From Escherichia phage vB-Eco-KMB38: a DNA stretch of 64,000 nt. The notes beneath the pieces are model-generated. The model did no database searches and was not told the origin of the DNA. It worked only from the letters and a program-made list of their open reading frames with translations. The translations under genes were made by a program, and so were the position numbers. The stretch is taken from sequence record OR525701.1; one strand, written 5' to 3'. This document shows positions 4,574 to 12,225 of this stretch, in pieces; position 1 is the stretch's first letter; each line of letters starts with the position of its first letter.

Positions 4574-5530
4574 TTATTTGAAAGGTTTTACCATATGGAA
4601 ATTTTGTTTGAAACGTTTGACGTAATCGTCATGTCCTAAGCGTTGGTACATACTTACAACTTTGCTGTAGTTTTCCCAGGCGTATTCACGGAACCAACCG
4701 GAGGTGATGCTTGTGCAAACTTTTTCTAATGCCATCATGAAACTGGCTTCAGAGTTAATTTCAAAGTTATTAGGAATCTGAGAACGTTCTAATGCTAGTA
4801 CACATGATTCTTCATATACACCGGCCAATTTGACCATTTCTGGTAACGATTCGAACTTCTCGCGTGAGGTCATGACTTCAGAACCATCTTTCATGTAAAA
4901 TGTATAAGCCGGACGGTCTGTTAGTGCAATGGCTTCGTGAATAGTATCATGGTCATATGTGTAGATGTCATCTTTAAAGAATGCGCTTTTAGAAGTGTCA
5001 AGAATCGGGTGAGCATAGTTCAAGGTTTCTTTCTGGCGTTTCAGCATAATTTCAGTAAGTTCATCGTTCAGTGTAACACCTTTACCACGAAGATACTGGA
5101 TATGGTTCATAGTCTTTAAAAAGAATGGATTATTTTTCTTGAAACGATGAGACATTTTAATTGCAAGACATATCTCAGGAGTTGCCCAGTAAAACCCGGT
5201 CAAACGATCTTTAGTCAAATTTTTCTTGGCGTATTTTAAAAGGTCATAAGAAGACGTGAAATCTTCAGGAGTGAGTTCACCGACTAATTCACGAACATTA
5301 GTGATTGCCGGAACAATATATGCTTCAAAATGAGTTTCGCGTCCATTATGGAAGCATTTGAAAACTTGGACATCAGGGTTATCTTGGTGAACATATACAC
5401 CCATCATTTGATTTTTGAATGCATTCCAAGAACCTTGGTCCGCAATAAAGTCCCAATCGCTATTTTTGATAGCGCTAGAATCAATAAGACCATGATAGTG
5501 AAGTGCACGAGAACCAATAACTAACATCAT
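4574..5530 (-). CDS. Hypothetical protein (318 aa)
   Basis: Long ORF with GAGGAAAATATT RBS; no recognised family. Confidence 0.55.
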   Translation of the reverse strand: MMLVIGSRALHYHGLIDSSAIKNSDWDFIADQGSWNAFKNQMMGVYVHQDNPDVQVFKCFHNGRETHFEAYIVPAITNVRELVGELTPEDFTSSYDLLKYAKKNLTKDRLTGFYWATPEICLAIKMSHRFKKNNPFFLKTMNHIQYLRGKGVTLNDELTEIMLKRQKETLNYAHPILDTSKSAFFKDDIYTYDHDTIHEAIALTDRPAYTFYMKDGSEVMTSREKFESLPEMVKLAGVYEESCVLALERSQIPNNFEINSEASFMMALEKVCTSITSGWFREYAWENYSKVVSMYQRLGHDDYVKRFKQNFHMVKPFK

Positions 5531-5860: not shown

Positions 5861-6058
5861 TTAGCAAGAATAACTAGACGATACCCAGCCTTGAACAGTA
5901 ATGCTATTATTAGATAATGAGATTGCGTTCTGGAGATTCAGACCTGCGTTATCTTCAATCCATAATGTAACTTCTTCGCGTTCTTCTGTTGCAATTTGGA
6001 ACAGGTTTTCCAGGGCAGCTACTGCCGTACGTACAGCACAATCTAATTCACGAGACAT
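5861..6058 (-). CDS. Small protein, paralogue family member (ends GWVSSSYSC)
   Basis: 65 aa; shares C-terminal W-x-S-S-S-x-x-C motif with the next two genes. Confidence 0.5.
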   Translation of the reverse strand: MSRELDCAVRTAVAALENLFQIATEEREEVTLWIEDNAGLNLQNAISLSNNSITVQGWVSSSYSC

Positions 6059-6067
6059 ATGGTTTCC

Positions 6068-6340
6068 TTAGCAAGTGTGAGAAGATGCGATCCAACCACC
6101 AGTTTCGAGGCTCAGGTTGTAGTCGTATTGGTAAACGTCAGCCCATTCAGCATAGCCGTTTTTTGTACAACGTTCAAGATCGGCTTTAAGCTGTCCGGGT
6201 GAATGATATGTTCCACCCATACCATAAGCTGGATACAAGTCGAATGTTGTGTTTTGTTTATCAGCAATTTCTTTGGCAGCCTCAATAGCTGCATAGATTT
6301 TTGCTACAGCTTCAGCCAGTTCGGTTTGTTCTTTAGACAT
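6068..6340 (-). CDS. Small protein, paralogue family member (ends GGWIASSHTC)
   Basis: 90 aa; N-terminus MSKEQ; conserved C-terminal motif followed by TAAGGAA RBS of next gene. Confidence 0.5.
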   Translation of the reverse strand: MSKEQTELAEAVAKIYAAIEAAKEIADKQNTTFDLYPAYGMGGTYHSPGQLKADLERCTKNGYAEWADVYQYDYNLSLETGGWIASSHTC

Positions 6341-6349
6341 AATGATTCC

Positions 6350-6655
6350 TTAGCACAACGCAGAAGACGAAACCCAAGCACCTTCAGTAATAACGTAACC
6401 ATTACCTTCACGCTTAACATCGCCACCATTATTTTCAATTTCATCTTTCATCCACTGGGATACGATTTCACCCTTAGGATAATAAGTACGACCGCTACCA
6501 TAATCACCTACAGAAAATGATACAGAATATTGGTCTGCGATCTTTGTTGCTTCTTCTTCGATACGTTCAGCTTGATTCAGAAGTTTATAAATTGCATCTG
6601 AAGCGGATTTGGCATCATTAAACTCTGGTACTTTAATTTCAATAATCTTACTCAT
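6350..6655 (-). CDS. Small protein, paralogue family member (ends GAWVSSSALC)
   Basis: 101 aa; N-terminus MSKI; same C-terminal motif. Confidence 0.5.
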   Translation of the reverse strand: MSKIIEIKVPEFNDAKSASDAIYKLLNQAERIEEEATKIADQYSVSFSVGDYGSGRTYYPKGEIVSQWMKDEIENNGGDVKREGNGYVITEGAWVSSSALC

Positions 6656-7011
6656 TTTCTACATTCCTTAATAAAGTTTTCTATTGTTTCATTTTCACGT
6701 CTAGCTAGGAGTTCATTATAACTAATCATTTGAGAAGCGTAAACCTTTTTATTTTTCTTGTTATGGTTTATAAAATCGTAGTAAAAATAGACTACAGTAC
6801 AAAAGGATGCGATGGATGCAAAGGCTTGGGTATACCGTAAGTCCTGCCATTGGTCTGTGAATCCACCAGTGTTCCCTATAAATCCTAACACAACGCCGTC
6901 AATAAGAAATCCAACTAATCCAAAGGCAAATCCCATGCCAATACTCATAATAAAAATTAGAATGTTCTCACCAAGAGAAGGCCATACGGTTAAGAGTTGA
7001 GGTTTTTGCAT
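6652..7011 (-). CDS. Hypothetical membrane protein
   Basis: Hydrophobic segments; AAGGAAAT RBS; C-terminal IENFIKECRK. Confidence 0.55.
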   Translation of the reverse strand: MQKPQLLTVWPSLGENILIFIMSIGMGFAFGLVGFLIDGVVLGFIGNTGGFTDQWQDLRYTQAFASIASFCTVVYFYYDFINHNKKNKKVYASQMISYNELLARRENETIENFIKECRK

Positions 7012-7385
7012 CTTATTTCCTTAACGAATTCCATAGCTTCTTCATATTCATACTTTTTAACAGCTTCATCATACTGAGCTTGGGCTTTTGCGCACTGAAC
7101 TTTCCACTCGCGAACTCGAGCTCTGTGATGACGGCCTTGGTGCCAATATCCTGCCCAATTAATAGGCATTAATAAAAACGGTACAATAAGTGGTGCGACG
7201 AACATTAATGAAAACGCTGCATCAGACGATATAACTTTATTGGAATCTAAAATAGCTCCTATAATCATAAAGATTAAAAATGCTAAAGCTAAAATAGGGC
7301 CAAATAGTACTTCGTTTGGGATTAATTTACGTTTGTATTCGTATGCCCATGGCTTAATTGGCATGTACAGGGTTGGCTTTGACAT
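6990..7385 (-). CDS. Hypothetical membrane protein
   Basis: ORF-track start at 7415 is TTG; first ATG gives MSKPTLYMPIK; two hydrophobic helices; C-terminal EFVKEIRCK. Confidence 0.5.
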   Translation of the reverse strand: MSKPTLYMPIKPWAYEYKRKLIPNEVLFGPILALAFLIFMIIGAILDSNKVISSDAAFSLMFVAPLIVPFLLMPINWAGYWHQGRHHRARVREWKVQCAKAQAQYDEAVKKYEYEEAMEFVKEIRCKNLNS

Positions 7386-7977
7386 ATTCTCTACATTCCA
7401 TAATAAATTGCTCAAGGATTAAATTGTTAGTGAAATTAGGACTAACAACCATAGTTTCATAAAGCGCATCAATAGCACTTAAAGCATCAACTCTTTTAAG
7501 CAAAGGCTTGCCTTCATACATAGTTTCAGAATCGACGATTAACGTAAAGTAATATTTTTTATTATCGACTAGAACTTCTGTGTCGATATAAAACATATTA
7601 GACCTCAGAAGCTTATCTCTAAAACCATAATAATCTTCTGAACGTTCGCTGATATATTCCCATTCAGTGTTTAAACAACAAACAGACCACGTAGGAGCAA
7701 CGAAATCAGTGAATCTAATATCATGGTCTGCAACTAGTTTAGCAATAGCTCCGATATCATGAATCATAATACCTGGGGCTAATAAAGATTTTCTGCTATG
7801 GCTAGCCGTTTTCTCAGTGGTCTCATAAGAAGCTGACCAGTACCATTTACGTCCGGTTGCAACATATCGTAATGAATCAACTAAAGACGTAGGTGGATTT
7901 ACCTTATCTCGGAACTCTTCGAACATCGAGTCAATATCATTATTTTGGTTTCGCATGTTAACTCCTTTATCATCCAA
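7354..7977 (-). CDS. Hypothetical protein (207 aa)
   Basis: ORF with C-terminal EQFIMECREY motif overlapping next gene start. Confidence 0.5.
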   Translation of the reverse strand: MDDKGVNMRNQNNDIDSMFEEFRDKVNPPTSLVDSLRYVATGRKWYWSASYETTEKTASHSRKSLLAPGIMIHDIGAIAKLVADHDIRFTDFVAPTWSVCCLNTEWEYISERSEDYYGFRDKLLRSNMFYIDTEVLVDNKKYYFTLIVDSETMYEGKPLLKRVDALSAIDALYETMVVSPNFTNNLILEQFIMECREYVKANPVHAN

Positions 7978-8005
7978 AAGGAGGACCGGAGTCCTCCGTA
8001 TTATT

Positions 8006-8599
8006 TTATTTCAAAGAGTTAATATATTCTTGTACATCAGCAGAAGTGGTTTCGACACCGGCTGGAGTACCATTGAACGTTTCAACACGAGTCAGAGTGT
8101 CTTCGATATCAACCTTAGTCAGTGCAGCGATTTCAATTACATCATCGGCCGTAGAGATACCAAGGGCATTGGCTGCTCGAGTTTCACGAATGTATTCGAG
8201 TTTGATTGCCAGATTCTGACGAGCATCATCAAGTTCAACCACCTTACGAGCAATTTCAATTCGCATAGCGGCATACCCGTCGGCTTTTGTATTAAGTTGT
8301 TCGGCAGTTCGACGATACAGAAGACCAAGCTTAGCATGCATGGTAACATCTTGTCCTTCGGCCAAGAGCTTACGAATTTCACGTTCCTTAGAAGCGGCTT
8401 GTTTATTCTTTTCAATAACAAGTTCGCGAATACGTTTTTCTTCATTAATAGATTTAACAGAAGCCGTTTTTAGTTCTTTGATTTGGGTAATCAACTTATC
8501 TGCAGCTGCGTTATACTGTTCTTCGACAGTCAGATTTTTAGCCATAGCAGTACCCAGTTTAGTGCGGATGAATTCAACAAGTTTCTTCAGTGTGTTCAT
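8006..8599 (-). CDS. Coiled-coil protein, possibly PspA/IM30-like
   Basis: Start at MNTLKK after AAAGG RBS (ORF-track start is 5 codons upstream); heptad-rich, charge-alternating sequence resembling PspA architecture; assignment is inference. Confidence 0.45.
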
Positions 8600-8669
8600 A
8601 TTATTACCTTTCAATTGGTGGTTTATTATCCAATGAGAGCATTATACTCTGCTCTCAAGAGTTTGTAAA

Positions 8670-8897
8670 TTATTTTTTAATCAAATTGACATAAAACTTG
8701 GCGTCTTCCGGGTGCATGCCTTCACAGTATTCTTCAACCATGAACTTCTTAACAGCTTCATAAGGACCACTCAGATTAAGCTCAGTTGTCCAGAACTTGG
8801 AATCTTGGGCTGAATCGATACGAACTTCAGGGTGACGGTTGCGAATAACTTCTTCGGTATATTCATAATCAACGACATCAATACTAACTTTAGCCAT
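8670..8897 (-). CDS. Hypothetical small protein (75 aa)
   Basis: ORF with AGAGGAAAAC RBS downstream of an early promoter. Confidence 0.5.
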   Translation of the reverse strand: MAKVSIDVVDYEYTEEVIRNRHPEVRIDSAQDSKFWTTELNLSGPYEAVKKFMVEEYCEGMHPEDAKFYVNLIKK

Positions 8898-8914
8898 TTT
8901 GTTTTCCTCTTGAT

Positions 8915-8958
8915 TTGATGTGATTACTATAACATAAACTTACTTAGATGTAAATTAT
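8915..8958 (-). promoter_or_regulatory. Early promoter (ATTTAC -35, TGTTATAGT extended -10)
   Basis: Minus-strand sense AATTTACATCTAAGTAAGTTTATGTTATAGTAATCACATCAA. Confidence 0.45.
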
Positions 8959-9108
8959 TTCAACGTCACCTTTAGCGGCTTTATAACCTTCAGCCCAAGA
9001 TACAACAGAGTTTTTATCTGAGGATTCAAATTCAGGCATTGGACTTTCACCGATATTCACACAGTATGTTTCTTCATTTTCATCGAACCAAATAATTAAA
9101 GTAGTCAT
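8945..9108 (-). CDS. Hypothetical small protein (~54 aa, below ORF-track cut-off)
   Basis: MTTLIIWFDENEETYCVNIGESPMPEF... preceded by GAGGAGTAAACAAA RBS and a promoter; coordinates approximate. Confidence 0.35.
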
Positions 9109-9168
9109 TTTGTTTACTCCTCTGTAGTTGATAAGTCTATAGTATCACCATCCTTGGTGCTTGTACAT
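9107..9168 (-). promoter_or_regulatory. Early promoter cassette; 44-bp copy also present at 45181-45224
   Basis: tcattttgtttactcctctgtagttgataagtctatagtatcac repeated near-exactly at 45181. Confidence 0.5.
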
Positions 9169-9176
9169 CGTTATTT

Positions 9177-9482
9177 TTAATTTTTCCAACTTAACAACTT
9201 GTAGTGTCCTTCATTCGTACGAGGTTTATCCCAAGAAATACTAATATATGATTCGCTATCAATAGAAGTCGCCGGGTTTTTCTCTACCGTAAGACCTTCA
9301 CTTTCCAGCCATTCAATAGTATTTGCGCATAAATCAGAAGAACACCTCATCGGGAACCGGCAAGATTTTTCACCTTTAGCTGCAGTGTTATACATCTTTT
9401 CTAGAATACGCTTTTGCACGTTTTTAAAAATAGTTTCAGCAGATTCTTCAGATTTTTTATTCAGTTCAGTATAAAGACTCAT
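9177..9482 (-). CDS. Hypothetical protein (101 aa)
   Basis: ORF with GAGGAAAATG RBS downstream of early promoter. Confidence 0.5.
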   Translation of the reverse strand: MSLYTELNKKSEESAETIFKNVQKRILEKMYNTAAKGEKSCRFPMRCSSDLCANTIEWLESEGLTVEKNPATSIDSESYISISWDKPRTNEGHYKLLSWKN

Positions 9483-9499
9483 AACATTTTCCTCTGCGG

Positions 9500-9540
9500 T
9501 TGATAAGTCTATAGTATCATGTCCTTAGAAGAAGTAAACA
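9500..9540 (-). promoter_or_regulatory. Early promoter (GTTTAC -35, TGATACTAT extended -10)
   Basis: Minus-strand sense GTTTACTTCTTCTAAGGACATGATACTATAGACTTATCAAC. Confidence 0.55.
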
Positions 9541-9570
9541 TCTTTATGAAATATTTTTATGCCCTAGATA

Positions 9571-9599
9571 CCAAAAAGCCCCAACCGTAAGGAAGGGGC
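9571..9599 (-). terminator. Rho-independent terminator (GCCCC...GGGGC hairpin plus U-run on minus strand)
   Basis: gccccaaccgtaaggaaggggc preceded on plus strand by aaaaa; lies just 3' of Ip gene 9606..10070. Confidence 0.55.
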
Positions 9600-9605
9600 A
9601 TTCTA

Positions 9606-10070
9606 TTATTTAATTTGTTTAGCAGACCAGATACGGTCTTTAATAAGTTTTTGGATATCTTCAACATACTCAAGGCTATGAGCGTGAGGATTATCTTTGA
9701 AACTATGTGCTCGTGCCAGTTTCTGGCCTTCTGTTTTGATTACTAAAAGCTCTTTAAGAATTGCTTCATACTTAGAAATAATTCCTTTGGCGATATTTTT
9801 TTCTTGAGCTGTTTTAGGGTCCGCTTTTGGCGCAGGTGCTTTACCTGTAGCTTTCTGGAACAATTCACCTGATGCAGCTAGGCTTTTAAAAACTCGGCTA
9901 ACAGTATTAGCATTAGTAAAACCTTCGGCTTTAAAATCTCTAATAAAACGGAAACGTTCTTCATCGGAGGCGTCTTTGTAAGAATATTTACCTGCTTGAA
10001 TTGCTGCAATCGCAGCGGCTTTTACATCTGAACTAGATTGTTCAGTCAAAAATTCAGCGTATGATTTCAT
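9606..10070 (-). CDS. Internal protein (Ip-type) with capsid-targeting sequence
   Basis: N-terminus MKSYAEFLTE; 154 aa. Confidence 0.55.
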   Translation of the reverse strand: MKSYAEFLTEQSSSDVKAAAIAAIQAGKYSYKDASDEERFRFIRDFKAEGFTNANTVSRVFKSLAASGELFQKATGKAPAPKADPKTAQEKNIAKGIISKYEAILKELLVIKTEGQKLARAHSFKDNPHAHSLEYVEDIQKLIKDRIWSAKQIK

Positions 10071-10113
10071 GTTGCTTTTCCTAAGTTAATTAACTTATCT
10101 ATTTATTATTATA

Positions 10114-10142
10114 CCAAAAAGCCCCAACCTTTCGGAAGGGGC
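10114..10142 (-). terminator. Rho-independent terminator
   Basis: gccccaacctttcggaaggggc with U-run on minus strand; near-copy of hairpin at 9578. Confidence 0.55.
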
Positions 10143-10194
10143 TAAGCCTTGCGGCAACCTTGTCGGGGTTCCACCTGCTAAGGCAAGTGTTTGT

Positions 10195-10286
10195 ACGAAA
10201 CGCCGGGATTCGAACCCGGTTATTAAGTAGTTGACGCTACTCAATATTTTTAAAAGGCCATATCTCGACCATATCCGAACGTTCCG
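10195..10286 (-). ncRNA. tRNA-like structured RNA (canonical T-arm and acceptor pairing, aberrant D/anticodon region)
   Basis: Minus-sense CCGGGTTCGAATCCCGG T-arm; 5' CGGAACG pairs with 3' CGTTTCG; interior does not fold as a standard cloverleaf. Confidence 0.3.
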
Positions 10287-10456
10287 TCAAAAACGCTACT
10301 CGGCTTACGGCAAAGATATTTCCTCGAATCGATAATTCTGTGCGCCGTTTCTGCTGTGAGATAAGGGACTTTAAGATGTCAACTCATGTACGCCTTAAAG
10401 TCGGGTCTTATTCAGGGAACATCAGTCCGACGACTTGCCGGTAGCGACCCGGCTTC

Positions 10457-10801
10457 TTATTTTGGCATATCATCAATTTGCTCTCGACGCCGACGCCATA
10501 GATTAATCGCTTCATTAACACATTCGGCGTTTGGTATATGACGGCAATAATATAATGATTCACGTTTCTGGAACCGATGTTGCAACGGGATTTCGTTTAA
10601 AAGGTCTTTACGGTCAAAGTATTCAAAACTAGTTAACCCAGAACGGTTTTTAATGAACTTCCAATGTCCAAATTCATTTTGAACATAGATGTAATCGGCA
10701 TGCTGATACAGCGAATTAATCAATCGATGAGAAATAACTGTATCATATTCGTTAAAATAAAACGTTAAATCATGAACTACCAGATAAACATTGCCTTTCA
10801 T
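10457..10801 (-). CDS. Hypothetical protein
   Basis: ORF-track start at 10849 would overlap tRNA-Arg; internal Met MKGNVYLVVHDL chosen. Confidence 0.45.
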   Translation of the reverse strand: MKGNVYLVVHDLTFYFNEYDTVISHRLINSLYQHADYIYVQNEFGHWKFIKNRSGLTSFEYFDRKDLLNEIPLQHRFQKRESLYYCRHIPNAECVNEAINLWRRRREQIDDMPK

Positions 10802-10819
10802 ATTTTCCTCACTTAAAGT

Positions 10820-10896
<77 letters not shown>

Positions 10897-10902
10897 AATA
10901 TA

Positions 10903-10976
10903 TGACCCAGACCAGATTCGAACTGGTAACCTTTCCCTTATGAGGGGACTGCTGCTAACCGTTGAGCTACAGGGCC
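10903..10976 (-). tRNA. tRNA with CAU anticodon (Ile2/Met type)
   Basis: Minus sense GGCCCTG...GTCCC-CTCATAA-GGGAA...ACCAG-TTCGAAT-CTGGT-CTGGGTC-A; adjacent to tRNA-Arg as in the T4 Ile-Arg pair. Confidence 0.65.
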
Positions 10977-11038
10977 TAAATAACTTTCTATTATGAAAGG
11001 CACTTTAGAGCACCTTTGGTAATAGATGGTATGAATTA

Positions 11039-11065
11039 ATAATAACACATAATTCTTAAAGCAAA
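11039..11065 (-). promoter_or_regulatory. Candidate MotA-dependent middle promoter upstream of the tRNA genes
   Basis: Minus sense TTTGCTTTA (MotA-box-like) followed 12 nt later by TATTAT. Confidence 0.4.
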
Positions 11066-11571
11066 TCAATCATTTTAACAGTTGGCAAAACGATTTCTTC
11101 TTCAATATAAGCAAATTCAACACATTCAACTACACGCAAGAAATCATAATCATAATATTCAGAAGCATGACCAAGAATACCAACGAGACCTTCTGATACT
11201 AAATATCCATTCTCACGGAACAGGTCGAATACACGCGATTCGTCTTCTTCAGATTTATTACCAAGGTCGACTTCAATATCAAAGACCTTTTTAATGAATT
11301 CTGGATAAAGCTGGTCTGAGAACAGTCCTTCAACCAAGTATTCGTAGATTAAAAGCGAGCAATCACTGAATGGTGTATTACCACAGTAACGTTCAGCTTT
11401 AGTGCTGGAATGACGACTCTTAAATTTCTTCAAAAGATATTTAAACTGTTGGAGCTCATGCTCTTCCACTTCAAACAATGTTTTGGTTTTATAGTTGTCA
11501 CCATCATTTTCATAAGTAGTGACATCAATTACGTAACCCTTAGGAATTGTACTGCCTAAACAAATATTCAT
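11056..11571 (-). CDS. Hypothetical protein (171 aa)
   Basis: ORF; acidic; no recognised family. Confidence 0.5.
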   Translation of the reverse strand: MNICLGSTIPKGYVIDVTTYENDGDNYKTKTLFEVEEHELQQFKYLLKKFKSRHSSTKAERYCGNTPFSDCSLLIYEYLVEGLFSDQLYPEFIKKVFDIEVDLGNKSEEDESRVFDLFRENGYLVSEGLVGILGHASEYYDYDFLRVVECVEFAYIEEEIVLPTVKMIDLL

Positions 11572-11575
11572 TTAC

Positions 11576-11866
11576 TCACCGTACCATATTAATGTAATTA
11601 TATTCAATGCAACGTAATTTCAAAGGATTCTTGAAAATATCATATTCAAGAGGGCCTTTTTCTGTTTCAATAAAGAAATCAAAGTTAACTGTGTTAAATT
11701 TATCATCTTCACAGAGTAATTTAACTTGCGAAGATGAACGGTCGATATAAACCTTTTCAACCTCAAAGTTAGTCAGAATACCATAGTCATTAACTAGTGC
11801 TTTAGCTGCACGTTGATCGCTTTCATATCCATTCTCGACAGATTTTACTTTAGCATAAAGAATCAT
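11576..11866 (-). CDS. Hypothetical protein (96 aa)
   Basis: ORF with start overlapping the upstream stop. Confidence 0.5.
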   Translation of the reverse strand: MILYAKVKSVENGYESDQRAAKALVNDYGILTNFEVEKVYIDRSSSQVKLLCEDDKFNTVNFDFFIETEKGPLEYDIFKNPLKLRCIEYNYINMVR

Positions 11867-12225
11867 GAGTGTTCCACCACTTCAAAGGTATGAGCATCAA
11901 CAATATGATACCAGTCAAAATTTTCTTCTGCGTTTTTATAAATTTCGCGAAGAGCCTCAACAGTTTTTCCTGTAGCAACAAGGTCGTCAATACCGCCAAG
12001 AGGATAACAGTCATATCCAGCAAACAGAAGGAAATTAATAGTTTCTGTAGGTTCTGGATGCAGAACACCGTTATCGTCTACCACTTCAAAGAAAGTGTAA
12101 GAAGGAGTACAAGTTTTAATCCAAGCCCATGCTTGAGCTGCTGAATCAAATGGTCTGCGTATCAAACGACAATCAGGGTCTTTAGAAGGATTTGCTTCAA
12201 AATCTGCATATACATGATATTTCAT
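11863..12225 (-). CDS. Hypothetical protein (120 aa)
   Basis: ORF; tight packing with neighbours. Confidence 0.5.
   Translation of the reverse strand: MKYHVYADFEANPSKDPDCRLIRRPFDSAAQAWAWIKTCTPSYTFFEVVDDNGVLHPEPTETINFLLFAGYDCYPLGGIDDLVATGKTVEALREIYKNAEENFDWYHIVDAHTFEVVEHS

What the first reader, a model, noticed from the sequence alone, without database searches (positions are those of the whole stretch)
8006..8599. PspA/IM30-like coiled-coil protein in the early region
The ~197-aa protein is almost entirely amphipathic helix with PspA-like charge periodicity and an N-terminal amphipathic segment. A phage-encoded membrane-stress (ESCRT-III-like) protein could protect the inner membrane during injection or lysis timing. 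This is a guess from composition and architecture only.
Basis: inference. Interest (0 to 1): 0.5.

Follow-up and report, generated by a model that had tools for sequence, protein, structure and literature searches.

The report
T4 e.6: a phage PspA-like protein

Summary
The ORF is real. It lies at window 8006..8599 on the minus strand and encodes 197 aa. It has its own sigma-70-type promoter and a hairpin directly after the stop codon. It is the ortholog of phage T4 gene e.6 (88% identical), which belongs to PHROG 1203, "unknown function".

The protein alone matches no Pfam family or solved structure. The family evidence does link it to PspA/IM30:
- Two divergent family members from Kuttervirus-type phages pass Pfam's PspA_IM30 threshold.
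- A family profile puts Vipp1/PspA in eight of its nine best PDB matches (E 5e-5 to 1e-3), aligned in register from residue 1.
- hhalign gives 92-94% probability.
- Cyanobacterial Vipp1's best match among all PHROGs is PHROG 1203 (E 1.4e-7).
- The AlphaFold model has the PspA helix order, and Foldseek ranks Vipp1 structures first.

Compared with PspA, the protein lacks about 25 residues across helices alpha4/alpha5, is basic, and has no pspBC/pspF partners nearby.

A 2022 paper already called a Kuttervirus member of PHROG 1203 a PspA homologue. T4 screens find e.6 expressed early and dispensable in the laboratory.

Homology is well supported. A role as a membrane-stabilising polymer is inference. 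This is a new member of a known kind, of moderate interest.

The parts
8006..8599 (-). CDS of the e.6 ortholog, 197 aa plus stop codon; a divergent PspA/IM30-superfamily protein (PHROG 1203)
   Evidence: ORF list and sequence. 88% identical to T4 e.6. PHROG 1203 at E 1.7e-86. Third-codon-position bias in differences from T4. PspA/IM30 link.
8641..8669 (-). Sigma-70-type (T4 early-type) promoter, TTTACA-17 nt-TATAAT, in the 70-nt gap upstream of the gene
   Evidence: 11 of 12 consensus matches. An equivalent TTTACA-17-TATTAT with a TG extension lies upstream of T4 e.6. T4 e.6 RNA is classed as early.
8607..8612 (-). Shine-Dalgarno-like GAAAGG, 7 nt upstream of the ATG
   Evidence: Read directly from the sequence.
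7974..7997 (-). Intrinsic-terminator-like hairpin GGAGGACTCCGGTCCTCC followed by TTTTGG, 8 nt after the stop codon. It closes a one-gene transcription unit or stabilises the 3' end of the RNA.
   Evidence: T4 has a different GC hairpin (AGGGGCTTCGGCCCCT) at the same position after e.6.
8534..8596 (-). Residues 2-22: N-terminal basic amphipathic helix, the counterpart of PspA/Vipp1 helix alpha0 (the membrane-binding helix in those proteins)
   Evidence: Predicted helix 2/3-22. Aligns to PspA/Vipp1 residues 1-22. Hydrophobic moment 0.35-0.43 and charge +4. Low pLDDT.
8165..8527 (-). Residues 25-145: long helical hairpin (helix 25-80, turn 81-85 at the conserved G82, helix 86-145), the counterpart of PspA alpha1 and alpha2/3
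   Evidence: pLDDT 85-96. In-register alignment to Vipp1/PspA. Foldseek 6zvs_A: rmsd 2.9 A over 121 columns.
8009..8164 (-). Residues 146-197: near-invariant G147 elbow, shortened alpha4 (151-174, conserved ...VETF) and short alpha5 (185-197, conserved T..D...Y..SLK). About 25 residues are missing relative to PspA.
   Evidence: Global hhalign alignment, conservation analysis, model. Low to medium confidence.

Best explanation
The gene is the ortholog of phage T4 e.6. It encodes a compact, divergent member of the PspA/IM30(Vipp1)/ESCRT-III superfamily.

**Shown here**
- Homology to PspA/Vipp1 over essentially the whole length.
- The same helix order as PspA: alpha0, then the alpha1-alpha2/3 hairpin, then an elbow, alpha4 and alpha5.
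- A deletion of about 25 residues across the end of alpha4 and the start of alpha5.
- A basic N-terminal helix.
- A one-gene early transcription unit read by host sigma-70 RNA polymerase.
- Strong purifying selection.
- No phage-encoded partner conserved next to it.
- Dispensable for T4 growth on laboratory E. coli.

**Inferred**
- Soon after infection the protein binds the anionic inner membrane through its basic amphipathic alpha0 helix.
- It then self-assembles, like PspA and Vipp1, into a membrane-coating polymer.
- That polymer limits proton and ion leakage, keeping the cell energised while the phage replicates.
- In effect the phage would supply its own phage-shock protein. The infected host cannot induce its own sigma-54/PspF-dependent psp operon once T4 has shut off host transcription (established T4 biology).

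**Stresses it might counter, none tested**
- The puncture made at DNA entry and by superinfecting particles.
- Host abortive-infection effectors that depolarise the membrane.
- Holin load during lysis inhibition.

**My probabilities**
- Homology to PspA/IM30: about 0.9.
- Acts as a membrane-binding polymer: about 0.55.
- Any one specific stress: 0.3 or less.
For: **Identity**
- 88% identical to T4 e.6, with the same neighbours e.5, e.4 and e.3.
- PHROG 1203 at E 1.7e-86.

**Homology to PspA/IM30**
- 5 of 43 family members hit PF04012. P0183 (39.0 bits, E 8.9e-10) and P0177 (35.1 bits) exceed the 33.9-bit gathering score, and the next-best families reach only about 14-15 bits.
- Both are full-length members of the e.6 family: E 4e-17 and 1e-19 to the e.6 profile, and E 3.5e-65 and 1e-52 to PHROG 1203.
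- Relatives 77-85% identical to P0183 are in Ackermannviridae genomes. SJ3 ORF51 is 23.7% identical to e.6 by direct BLASTP, E 1e-11.
- The family profile puts Vipp1/PspA in eight of the nine best PDB matches, in register.
- hhalign gives 92.4% and 94% probability.
- Reciprocal test: Vipp1's best PHROG is 1203, E 1.4e-7.
- Shuffle control: z of about 12.
- P0183's best NCBIfam hit is LiaH, the Bacillus PspA homologue, in register but weak at E 0.005.

**Fold**
- AlphaFold helices match the PspA layout.
- The eight best Foldseek PDB hits are Vipp1, and archaeal ESCRT-III CdvB2 also appears.

**Expression and selection**
- Promoter and hairpin flank the gene.
- Early RNA and middle protein class in T4.
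- e.6 is 88% conserved between this phage and T4, against 35-52% for e.3, e.4 and e.5.
- 74 synonymous against 23 non-synonymous codon changes.
- Present in 1101 phage records, against 1487 with the core tail gene gp3.

**N-terminal helix**
- It is basic, +4 against 0 to +2 in PspA and Vipp1.

**Independent prior call**
- A PHROG 1203 member from a Kuttervirus was called a PspA homologue, with an anti-abortive-infection hypothesis (PMC9409062).
Against: **Limits of the homology evidence**
- The window protein alone hits no Pfam family, including PF04012, at E up to 10.
- It hits nothing in the PDB by sequence and no NCBIfam PspA or LiaH model.
- The narrower profile A1 gave only E 1.5-3.5 to Vipp1.
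- E. coli PspA scores only about 5 bits against the family profile.
- An unrelated coiled coil, prefoldin alpha, reaches 22 bits (E 9e-4) in the same PDB search, so E-values near 1e-3 are not clean.

**Limits of the functional inference**
- The amphipathicity of alpha0 is not statistically exceptional (shuffle p 0.17) and the model is poor there.
- The alpha4/alpha5 deletion removes part of the segment that mediates subunit contacts in Vipp1/PspA polymers, so polymerisation cannot be assumed.
- No functional evidence exists. CRISPRi knock-down of T4 e.6 is 'Not Fit', meaning no defect.
- Transposon insertions at all 43 TA sites are tolerated, and the one conditional comparison I read shows log2FC -0.20, p 0.55.
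Confidence: 0.6

Rival explanations
1. It is a true PspA homologue, but it works as a mimic or regulator rather than as a membrane protector. It would bind host Psp components (PspF, PspB/C or PspA itself). That would silence, hijack or poison the host phage-shock response, or co-assemble with host PspA.
For: E. coli PspA has a second, regulatory role as the PspF-binding anti-activator (established knowledge). e.6 is made immediately after infection from a strong early promoter, when many T4 early proteins act on host factors. The alpha4/alpha5 truncation could disable normal polymerisation while the hairpin is kept. The hairpin region is well conserved.
Against: The family resembles cyanobacterial Vipp1 (27 bits) much more than the hosts' own PspA (5-17 bits). 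That is not what a mimic of enterobacterial PspA would be expected to show. T4 shuts off host transcription anyway, so repressing psp would add little. No phenotype is known.
Confidence: 0.12
2. It shares the PspA-type helical hairpin by descent but has been repurposed for a job away from the membrane. It could be, for example, a coiled-coil adaptor or scaffold for another phage or host protein complex.
Against: The alpha0 helix is retained in register with conserved K5, F10 and K14 and a basic charge across the family. There is no conserved partner gene next to it in the two phage families. An early, non-structural expression class argues against a virion role. The database labels trace to no experiment that I could find.
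Confidence: 0.15
3. The resemblance to PspA is a coiled-coil artefact, and the protein is an unrelated helical protein.
Against: The alignment is in register from residue 1 over 146-199 positions, with the same helix breaks. Heptad-preserving shuffles reach at most 8.6 bits against 27.0, and the reversed sequence scores -4.8. Two intermediates pass Pfam's curated threshold with a gap of 20 bits or more to any other family. The reciprocal best hit among 38,880 PHROGs is this family. Foldseek's eight best hits are a single family.
Confidence: 0.06

Closest known systems
PspA / IM30 (Vipp1) / LiaH family (Pfam PF04012), bacterial branch of the ESCRT-III superfamily
   Same: Helix order alpha0, alpha1-alpha2/3 hairpin, elbow, alpha4, alpha5. 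The alignment is in register from residue 1, with the hairpin turn at the same position (~81-85, around a conserved Gly). There are conserved motifs at the start of alpha4 (…VETF, compare …FESFE/FERME) and at the C-terminal end of alpha5 (D..Y..SLK, compare E.L..LKA). No transmembrane segment. Size about 200-220 aa.
   Different: About 11-18% identity only. The protein itself is below Pfam's threshold. About 25 residues are missing across the end of alpha4 and the start of alpha5. pI is 7.8 against 5.4, and alpha0 carries +4. It lacks the Vipp1 C-terminal extension. It is encoded by a lytic phage as a single early gene, with no pspBC, pspF or sigma-54 promoter nearby.
Gp_125 of Salmonella phage SeF3a (Kuttervirus) and other Ackermannviridae members of PHROG 1203, called PspA homologues by Gendre et al. 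2022 (PMC9409062)
   Same: Same PHROG family. The equivalent SJ3 ORF51 aligns with e.6 over the full length (23.7% identity, E 1e-11). Both lie in an early/replication gene region and are annotated 'hypothetical protein'.
   Different: The Ackermannviridae branch is closer to canonical PspA and passes the Pfam threshold. The T4-type branch does not. The neighbouring genes differ. That paper presented the gene as a peculiarity of one of its Kuttervirus isolates and, in the passages read, did not connect it to T4 e.6. Here the gene is near-universal in T4-type phages of enterobacteria.
Canonical PspA/IM30 proteins annotated in other phages (e.g. Acinetobacter phage vB_AbaM_ME3, 229 aa) and Snf7/ESCRT-III proteins of giant viruses
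   Same: Virus-encoded members of the same superfamily. They appear in the Foldseek BFVD hit list for the e.6 model.
   Different: Only weak structural matches (E 0.07-0.11). They are full-length and recognisable by standard annotation, and are not members of PHROG 1203.
BAR-domain proteins (F-BAR, I-BAR)
   Different: No sequence or profile similarity. BAR is a dimeric three-helix unit. The match depends on the low-confidence packing of alpha0 against the hairpin in a monomer model. Rejected as a family assignment.

Membership tests
PspA/IM30 family (Pfam PF04012) | Score at or above Pfam's gathering threshold (33.9 bits) on the PspA_IM30 profile | tested here: not met
   The window protein has no PF04012 hit at E up to 10. 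Family members P0183 (39.0 bits) and P0177 (35.1 bits) do pass, and P0180 scores 22.3 bits. Membership is therefore transitive, at superfamily level, not direct.
PspA/IM30 family (Pfam PF04012) | Significant profile-to-profile or profile-to-sequence similarity to bona fide PspA/Vipp1 over the core (alpha0 to alpha3) | tested here: met
   PDB profile search E 4.7e-5 (1-146 against 1-147). hhalign 92.4% and 94% probability. Vipp1 to PHROG 1203 at E 1.4e-7. Shuffle control 0 of 500.
PspA/IM30 family (Pfam PF04012) | N-terminal amphipathic helix alpha0 (~residues 1-22) that binds membrane | tested here: inconclusive
   A helix is predicted at 2/3-22 and aligns to alpha0. Hydrophobic moment is 0.35-0.43 (PspA 0.40) and charge +4. 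However pLDDT is below 50 and shuffle p is 0.17. Membrane binding itself cannot be tested here.
PspA/IM30 family (Pfam PF04012) | Long alpha1-alpha2/3 coiled-coil hairpin followed by an elbow and helices alpha4 and alpha5 | tested here: met
   Helices 25-80 and 86-145 have pLDDT 85-96. G147 is 98% conserved at the elbow. Helices 151-160, 166-174 and 186-196 follow. alpha4/alpha5 are about 25 residues shorter than in PspA.
PspA/IM30 family (Pfam PF04012) | Self-assembly into rings, rods or carpets on membranes | not testable with these tools
   Only monomer prediction was available. This needs multimer modelling or electron microscopy of purified protein.
Psp (phage-shock) system of Enterobacteria | Genomic and functional coupling to pspF and pspBC, and sigma-54-dependent stress induction | tested here: not met
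   The neighbours are e.5, the e.7-position ORF and small ORFs of unknown function. The promoter is sigma-70 type. No partner is conserved between the T4-type and Kuttervirus loci.
ESCRT-III / Snf7 (Pfam PF03357) | Sequence match to the Snf7 profile, or a specific structural match to ESCRT-III subunits | tested here: inconclusive
BAR domain | Three-helix crescent dimer with sequence-family support | tested here: not met

The most novel reading that the evidence does not exclude
T4 e.6 and its relatives would be a phage-made ESCRT-III-type membrane-repair polymer. On this reading it keeps the infected cell energised against membrane damage. It could be the factor behind the classical 'resealing' of the envelope after T-even DNA injection or superinfection. 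It could also be a broad counter-defence against abortive-infection effectors that kill by depolarising or perforating the inner membrane. This would be a conditional function, invisible on laboratory K-12.
Probability: 0.25. Interest if true: 0.75.

Novelty: new member of a known kind. Interest (0 to 1): 0.55.

Why it matters
T4 is the reference lytic phage, and roughly 130 of its genes still have no function. One of them is e.6. It is well conserved, early-expressed and detected as protein, yet dispensable in the laboratory. It is near-universal in T4-type phages of enterobacteria and also occurs in Ackermannviridae.

Placing e.6 in the PspA/Vipp1/ESCRT-III superfamily turns an "unknown" into a directly testable hypothesis in a tractable system. 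The hypothesis is that lytic phages bring their own membrane-maintenance protein because the shut-off host can no longer induce its own.

If true, it would link the phage-shock/ESCRT-III field to phage takeover and possibly to counter-defence. It would also offer a minimal 197-residue PspA for structural work.

The homology was already noted once for a Kuttervirus relative, so the conceptual novelty is limited. What is added here is the T4 connection, the breadth of the family and the controls.

Tried and rejected
**Single-sequence searches.** Pfam, PDB, PADLOC and NCBIfam gave nothing for the window protein.

**hhalign of the close-homologue alignment A1 against one E. coli PspA sequence.** Meaningless result, 0.7% probability. 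It needed the more divergent family alignment A2 and a PspA+Vipp1 alignment.

**Database searches that added nothing.**
- A search seeded with E. coli PspA returned only relatives at 86% identity or more, so it did not yield a diverse PspA profile.
- A search with A2 in the word-indexed database added no new relatives.
- The exhaustive representative search found only 45 clusters, all about 200 aa, and none was a canonical PspA.

**Structure searches.**
- The afdb50 library was unavailable.

**Search for a conserved partner gene (a PspB/C analogue).** e.5 against the Kuttervirus SJ3 ORF52 'membrane protein', and all other neighbour pairs, showed no similarity.

**Database labels.** 'Host specificity protein' and 'tail completion protein' on some homologues have no visible support and conflict with early, non-structural expression.

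**Start codon.** The longer TTG start at 8614 (202 aa) was rejected in favour of the ATG at 8599. That start has a Shine-Dalgarno-like sequence and matches the length and N-terminus of T4 e.6.

**Overlapping ORFs.** ORFs on the other strand and in other frames (7955..8473 +, 8340..8636 +, 8137..8445 -) were rejected because the codon-position pattern of substitutions supports the e.6 frame.

**Literature.** Searches for T4 e.6 together with PspA found nothing. I read only one of several conditional comparisons in the HIDEN-SEQ supplement.

Full report
**1. What is at the coordinates**

Window 8006..8599 holds a minus-strand ORF. It starts with ATG at 8599, encodes 197 codons, and ends with a TAA stop at 8008..8006.

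The gene has its own flanking signals:
- A Shine-Dalgarno-like GAAAGG lies 7 nt upstream of the ATG.
- A sigma-70-type promoter, TTTACA-17-TATAAT (11 of 12 consensus matches), lies at 8669..8641 in the 70-nt gap upstream.
- A GC-rich hairpin, GGAGGACTCCGGTCCTCC followed by TTTTGG, starts 8 nt after the stop codon.

The gene therefore looks like a one-gene early transcription unit.

The window comes from a Tequatrovirus; it is 100% identical to Escherichia phage EP02SG over 3 kb. The ORF is the ortholog of phage T4 gene e.6 (T4p129, 'conserved hypothetical protein'). The two proteins are 88% identical over all 197 residues. T4 has the same layout: TTTACA-17-TATTAT upstream, and a different GC hairpin (AGGGGCTTCGGCCCCT) after the stop.

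The coding frame is confirmed by how the gene has diverged from T4. The 116 nucleotide differences fall 23/10/83 on codon positions 1/2/3, and 74 codon changes are synonymous against 23 non-synonymous. The overlapping ORFs on the plus strand and in other frames are therefore by-products.

**2. Distribution and selection**

tblastn finds the protein in 1101 phage records, 1099 of them near full length. The hosts are Escherichia, Shigella, Klebsiella, Enterobacter, Yersinia, Citrobacter, Salmonella, Cronobacter, Aeromonas and others. The core tail gene gp3 is found in 1487 records.

| Host name in record | e.6 records | gp3 records |
|---|---|---|
| Escherichia | 541 | 606 |
| Shigella | 80 | 84 |
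| Enterobacter | 52 | 56 |

The gene is thus near-universal in T4-type phages of enterobacteria. It was not among the listed hits for Acinetobacter or Vibrio T4-type phages.

An exhaustive HMMER scan of 1.84 billion representative proteins found only 45 clusters, and the full-length ones are about 195-209 aa. This is a small, compact and apparently phage-borne family.

Its divergent members (P0183, P0177 and others) have relatives 77-85% identical in Ackermannviridae genomes such as Kuttervirus SJ3 ORF51, FEC14 and Klebsiella vB_KpnM-20.

Between this phage and T4, e.6 is 88% identical. Its neighbours e.5, e.4 and e.3 are 47%, 52% and 35% identical. e.6 is therefore under much stronger constraint than the surrounding accessory genes.

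**3. Test of the PspA idea by sequence**

The single sequence gives nothing:
- No Pfam PF04012 hit.
- No PDB sequence hit.
- PHROG 1203, 'unknown function'.
- A profile of close homologues (A1) gave only E 1.5-3.5 to Vipp1, although the alignment was suggestively in register.

Widening the family alignment to 43 sequences (A2) changed the picture.

(a) Each member was scanned against Pfam. Five hit PspA_IM30. P0183 (39.0 bits, E 8.9e-10) and P0177 (35.1 bits, E 1.4e-8) exceed the curated 33.9-bit threshold. They align at residues 6-146 to profile positions 2-143, and every other family scores below about 15 bits. These two are unambiguous e.6-family members, and direct BLASTP links e.6 to the Kuttervirus protein at E 1e-11.

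(b) The A2 profile was searched against all PDB sequences. Eight of the nine best matches are Vipp1/PspA chains (E 4.7e-5 to 1.1e-3), aligned 1-146 against 1-147.

(c) hhalign of A2 against a PspA+Vipp1 alignment (A3) gives 92.4% probability and E 5e-7 locally. In global mode it gives 94% and E 2.3e-8 over 199 columns.

(d) Reciprocally, Synechocystis Vipp1 was scanned against all 38,880 PHROGs. Its best hit is PHROG 1203, at E 1.4e-7 and 1-140 against 1-139.

(e) Coiled coils inflate such scores; prefoldin alpha reached E 9e-4 in (b). I therefore scored 500 heptad-register-preserving shuffles of Vipp1 against the A2 profile. They averaged -3.3 ± 2.5 bits with a maximum of 8.6, and the reversed sequence scored -4.8, against 27.0 bits for the real sequence.

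I conclude that the e.6 family is a genuine but highly divergent branch of the PspA/IM30 superfamily. It is closer to the general PspA/Vipp1 consensus than to the hosts' own PspA: E. coli PspA scores about 5 bits. That argues against recent capture from an enterobacterial host.

**4. Test by structure**

Two AlphaFold2 models (24- and 43-sequence alignments; mean pLDDT 76.5 and 77.9) agree on the helix layout:
- helix 2/3-22;
- a break at 23-24;
- helix 25-80;
- a turn at 81-85;
- helix 86-145;
- shorter helices at 151-160, 166-174 and 186-196.

This is the PspA/Vipp1 order of alpha0, alpha1, alpha2/3, alpha4 and alpha5. The hairpin is confident (pLDDT 85-96). alpha0 and the alpha4 region are not.

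Foldseek against the PDB ranks eight Vipp1 structures first (E 7e-4 to 3e-2). It gives rmsd 2.9 Å over 121 columns to 6zvs_A, and archaeal ESCRT-III CdvB2 appears further down.

In the viral structure library the model finds its own family. It also finds, weakly, an annotated 'PspA/IM30 family protein' of Acinetobacter phage ME3 and a giant-virus Snf7 protein.

**5. How it differs from PspA**

- The global alignment shows about 25 residues missing. e.6 keeps the start of alpha4 (…DTLTRVETF against …EAMARFESFE) and the C-terminal end of alpha5 ([12 protein letters not shown] against DAISEQLAQLKAK). It lacks what lies between.
- The best-conserved single positions include G147 (98%, the elbow), L123, L43, I40, Y192, K5, K14, F175 and L196.
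- The protein is basic (pI 7.8 against 5.4). Its alpha0 carries +4 (family mean +3.3), against 0 for PspA and +2 for Vipp1.
- Nothing like pspB, pspC or pspF lies nearby, and all neighbours are PHROGs of unknown function.
- No neighbouring gene is shared between the T4-type and Kuttervirus loci.

**6. What is already known**

Gendre et al. 2022 (PMC9409062) reported from an HHpred comparison that Gp_125 of Salmonella phage SeF3a (PHROG 1203) is homologous to PspA. They suggested it might be an anti-abortive-infection factor. They treated it as a peculiarity of one of their Kuttervirus isolates. No other paper in the searchable library mentions PHROG 1203, and none links T4 e.6 to PspA.

For T4 e.6 itself, three large screens give data:
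- Time-resolved omics class it as early RNA / middle protein (PMC9697503 supplement).
- CRISPRi-ART lists it as PHROG 1203, unknown function, prior essentiality 'UNKNOWN', and knock-down 'Not Fit', meaning no defect (PMC11879866 supplement).
- HIDEN-SEQ recovered insertions at all 43 TA sites and scored it 'Non-essential'. The one conditional comparison I read showed no significant change (bioRxiv 10.1101/2025.11.20.689424 supplement).

**7. Most likely mechanism**

Shown:
- a PspA-superfamily protein;
- made early from a host-RNA-polymerase promoter;
- strongly conserved;
- dispensable in the laboratory.

Inferred from what PspA, Vipp1 and LiaH do (established knowledge):
- the basic alpha0 helix binds the anionic inner membrane;
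- the hairpins pack into a polymer that stabilises stressed membrane and limits proton leakage.

A lytic phage has a plausible reason to carry its own copy. After T4 shuts off host transcription, the sigma-54/PspF-dependent psp operon cannot respond, yet the phage needs an energised membrane until lysis.

Candidate stresses are the injection puncture and superinfection, membrane-targeting abortive-infection effectors, and holin load during lysis inhibition. None has been tested.

The alpha4/alpha5 truncation means that polymer geometry, or even the ability to polymerise, cannot be assumed.

Rival readings are a regulatory mimic of host Psp components, a hairpin repurposed for a non-membrane role, and a chance resemblance. 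They are given in the Rival explanations section with their tests.

**8. Verdict**

Two qualifications apply: the gene is on the minus strand, and the amphipathicity of the N-terminal helix is not statistically exceptional.
- The PspA/IM30 interpretation is supported at superfamily level.
- Strict Pfam membership of this particular protein is not met.
- The biological role is unproven.
- Novelty: a new, truncated and basic member of a known kind, whose family-level homology was already noted once in the literature.
- Interest is moderate. The value lies in giving a conserved T4 gene of unknown function a concrete, testable hypothesis.

Noticed in passing
window 5861..6655 (-): Three tandem small ORFs (65, 90 and 101 aa; PHROG 4882 and twice PHROG 899, all of unknown function) end in a shared C-terminal motif, G-W-(V/I)-(S/A)-S-S-x-x-C. 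The endings are …QGWVSSSYSC, …GGWIASSHTC and …GAWVSSSALC. They look like a small paralogous family with a conserved terminal cysteine, and I have no explanation for the motif.
   Followed up: partly
window 7354..8599 compared with L001 (T4) 9958..11906: Between this phage and T4, e.6 is 88% identical, while the adjacent genes e.5, e.4 and e.3 are only 47%, 52% and 35% identical. This is a sharp local contrast in constraint within a single accessory-gene block.
   Followed up: yes
window 7980..7997 (-) and L001 11292..11307: The hairpin after e.6 is conserved in position but not in sequence: GGAGGACTCCGGTCCTCC here, and AGGGGCTTCGGCCCCT with a UUCG loop in T4. That suggests selection for the structure, as a terminator or RNA-stabilising element between e.6 and e.5.
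   Followed up: partly
window 10820..10976 (-): Only two tRNA genes (Arg-TCT and Met-CAT) were found in the first 20 kb, where T4 has eight tRNAs plus rnaC and rnaD. Rfam reports nothing but these two tRNAs in 7000..12000. A 130-aa ORF (10457..10849) overlaps the end of tRNA-Arg and is probably spurious.
   Followed up: partly
window 8670..8897 (-): The 75-aa ORF upstream of e.6, in the position of T4 e.7, matches only the last 74 positions of a 391-position PHROG profile (PHROG 1764). It shows no similarity to T4 e.7. It may be a remnant or a domain-sized relative of a larger protein.
   Followed up: no
window 4574..5530 (-): A 318-aa ORF (PHROG 2141, unknown function, E 2e-149) lies in the e-region. 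It has no counterpart among T4 e.2-e.8. Its identity and its presence elsewhere in T4 were not checked.
   Followed up: no
database labels of e.6 homologues: Some homologues are labelled 'host specificity protein' (UniRef and several GenBank records) or 'tail completion protein' (Klebsiella phage UPM 2146). Nothing seen here supports these names, and they conflict with the early, non-structural expression class in T4. They are likely propagated mis-annotations.
   Followed up: partly
L005 (Salmonella phage SJ3) 5001..6222: In Kuttervirus the PspA-like gene (ORF51) is followed by a 191-aa predicted membrane protein (ORF52) with an N-terminal transmembrane segment. It is unrelated to T4 e.5, e.4 or e.3 by BLASTP. 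Whether it partners the PspA-like protein is unknown.
   Followed up: partly
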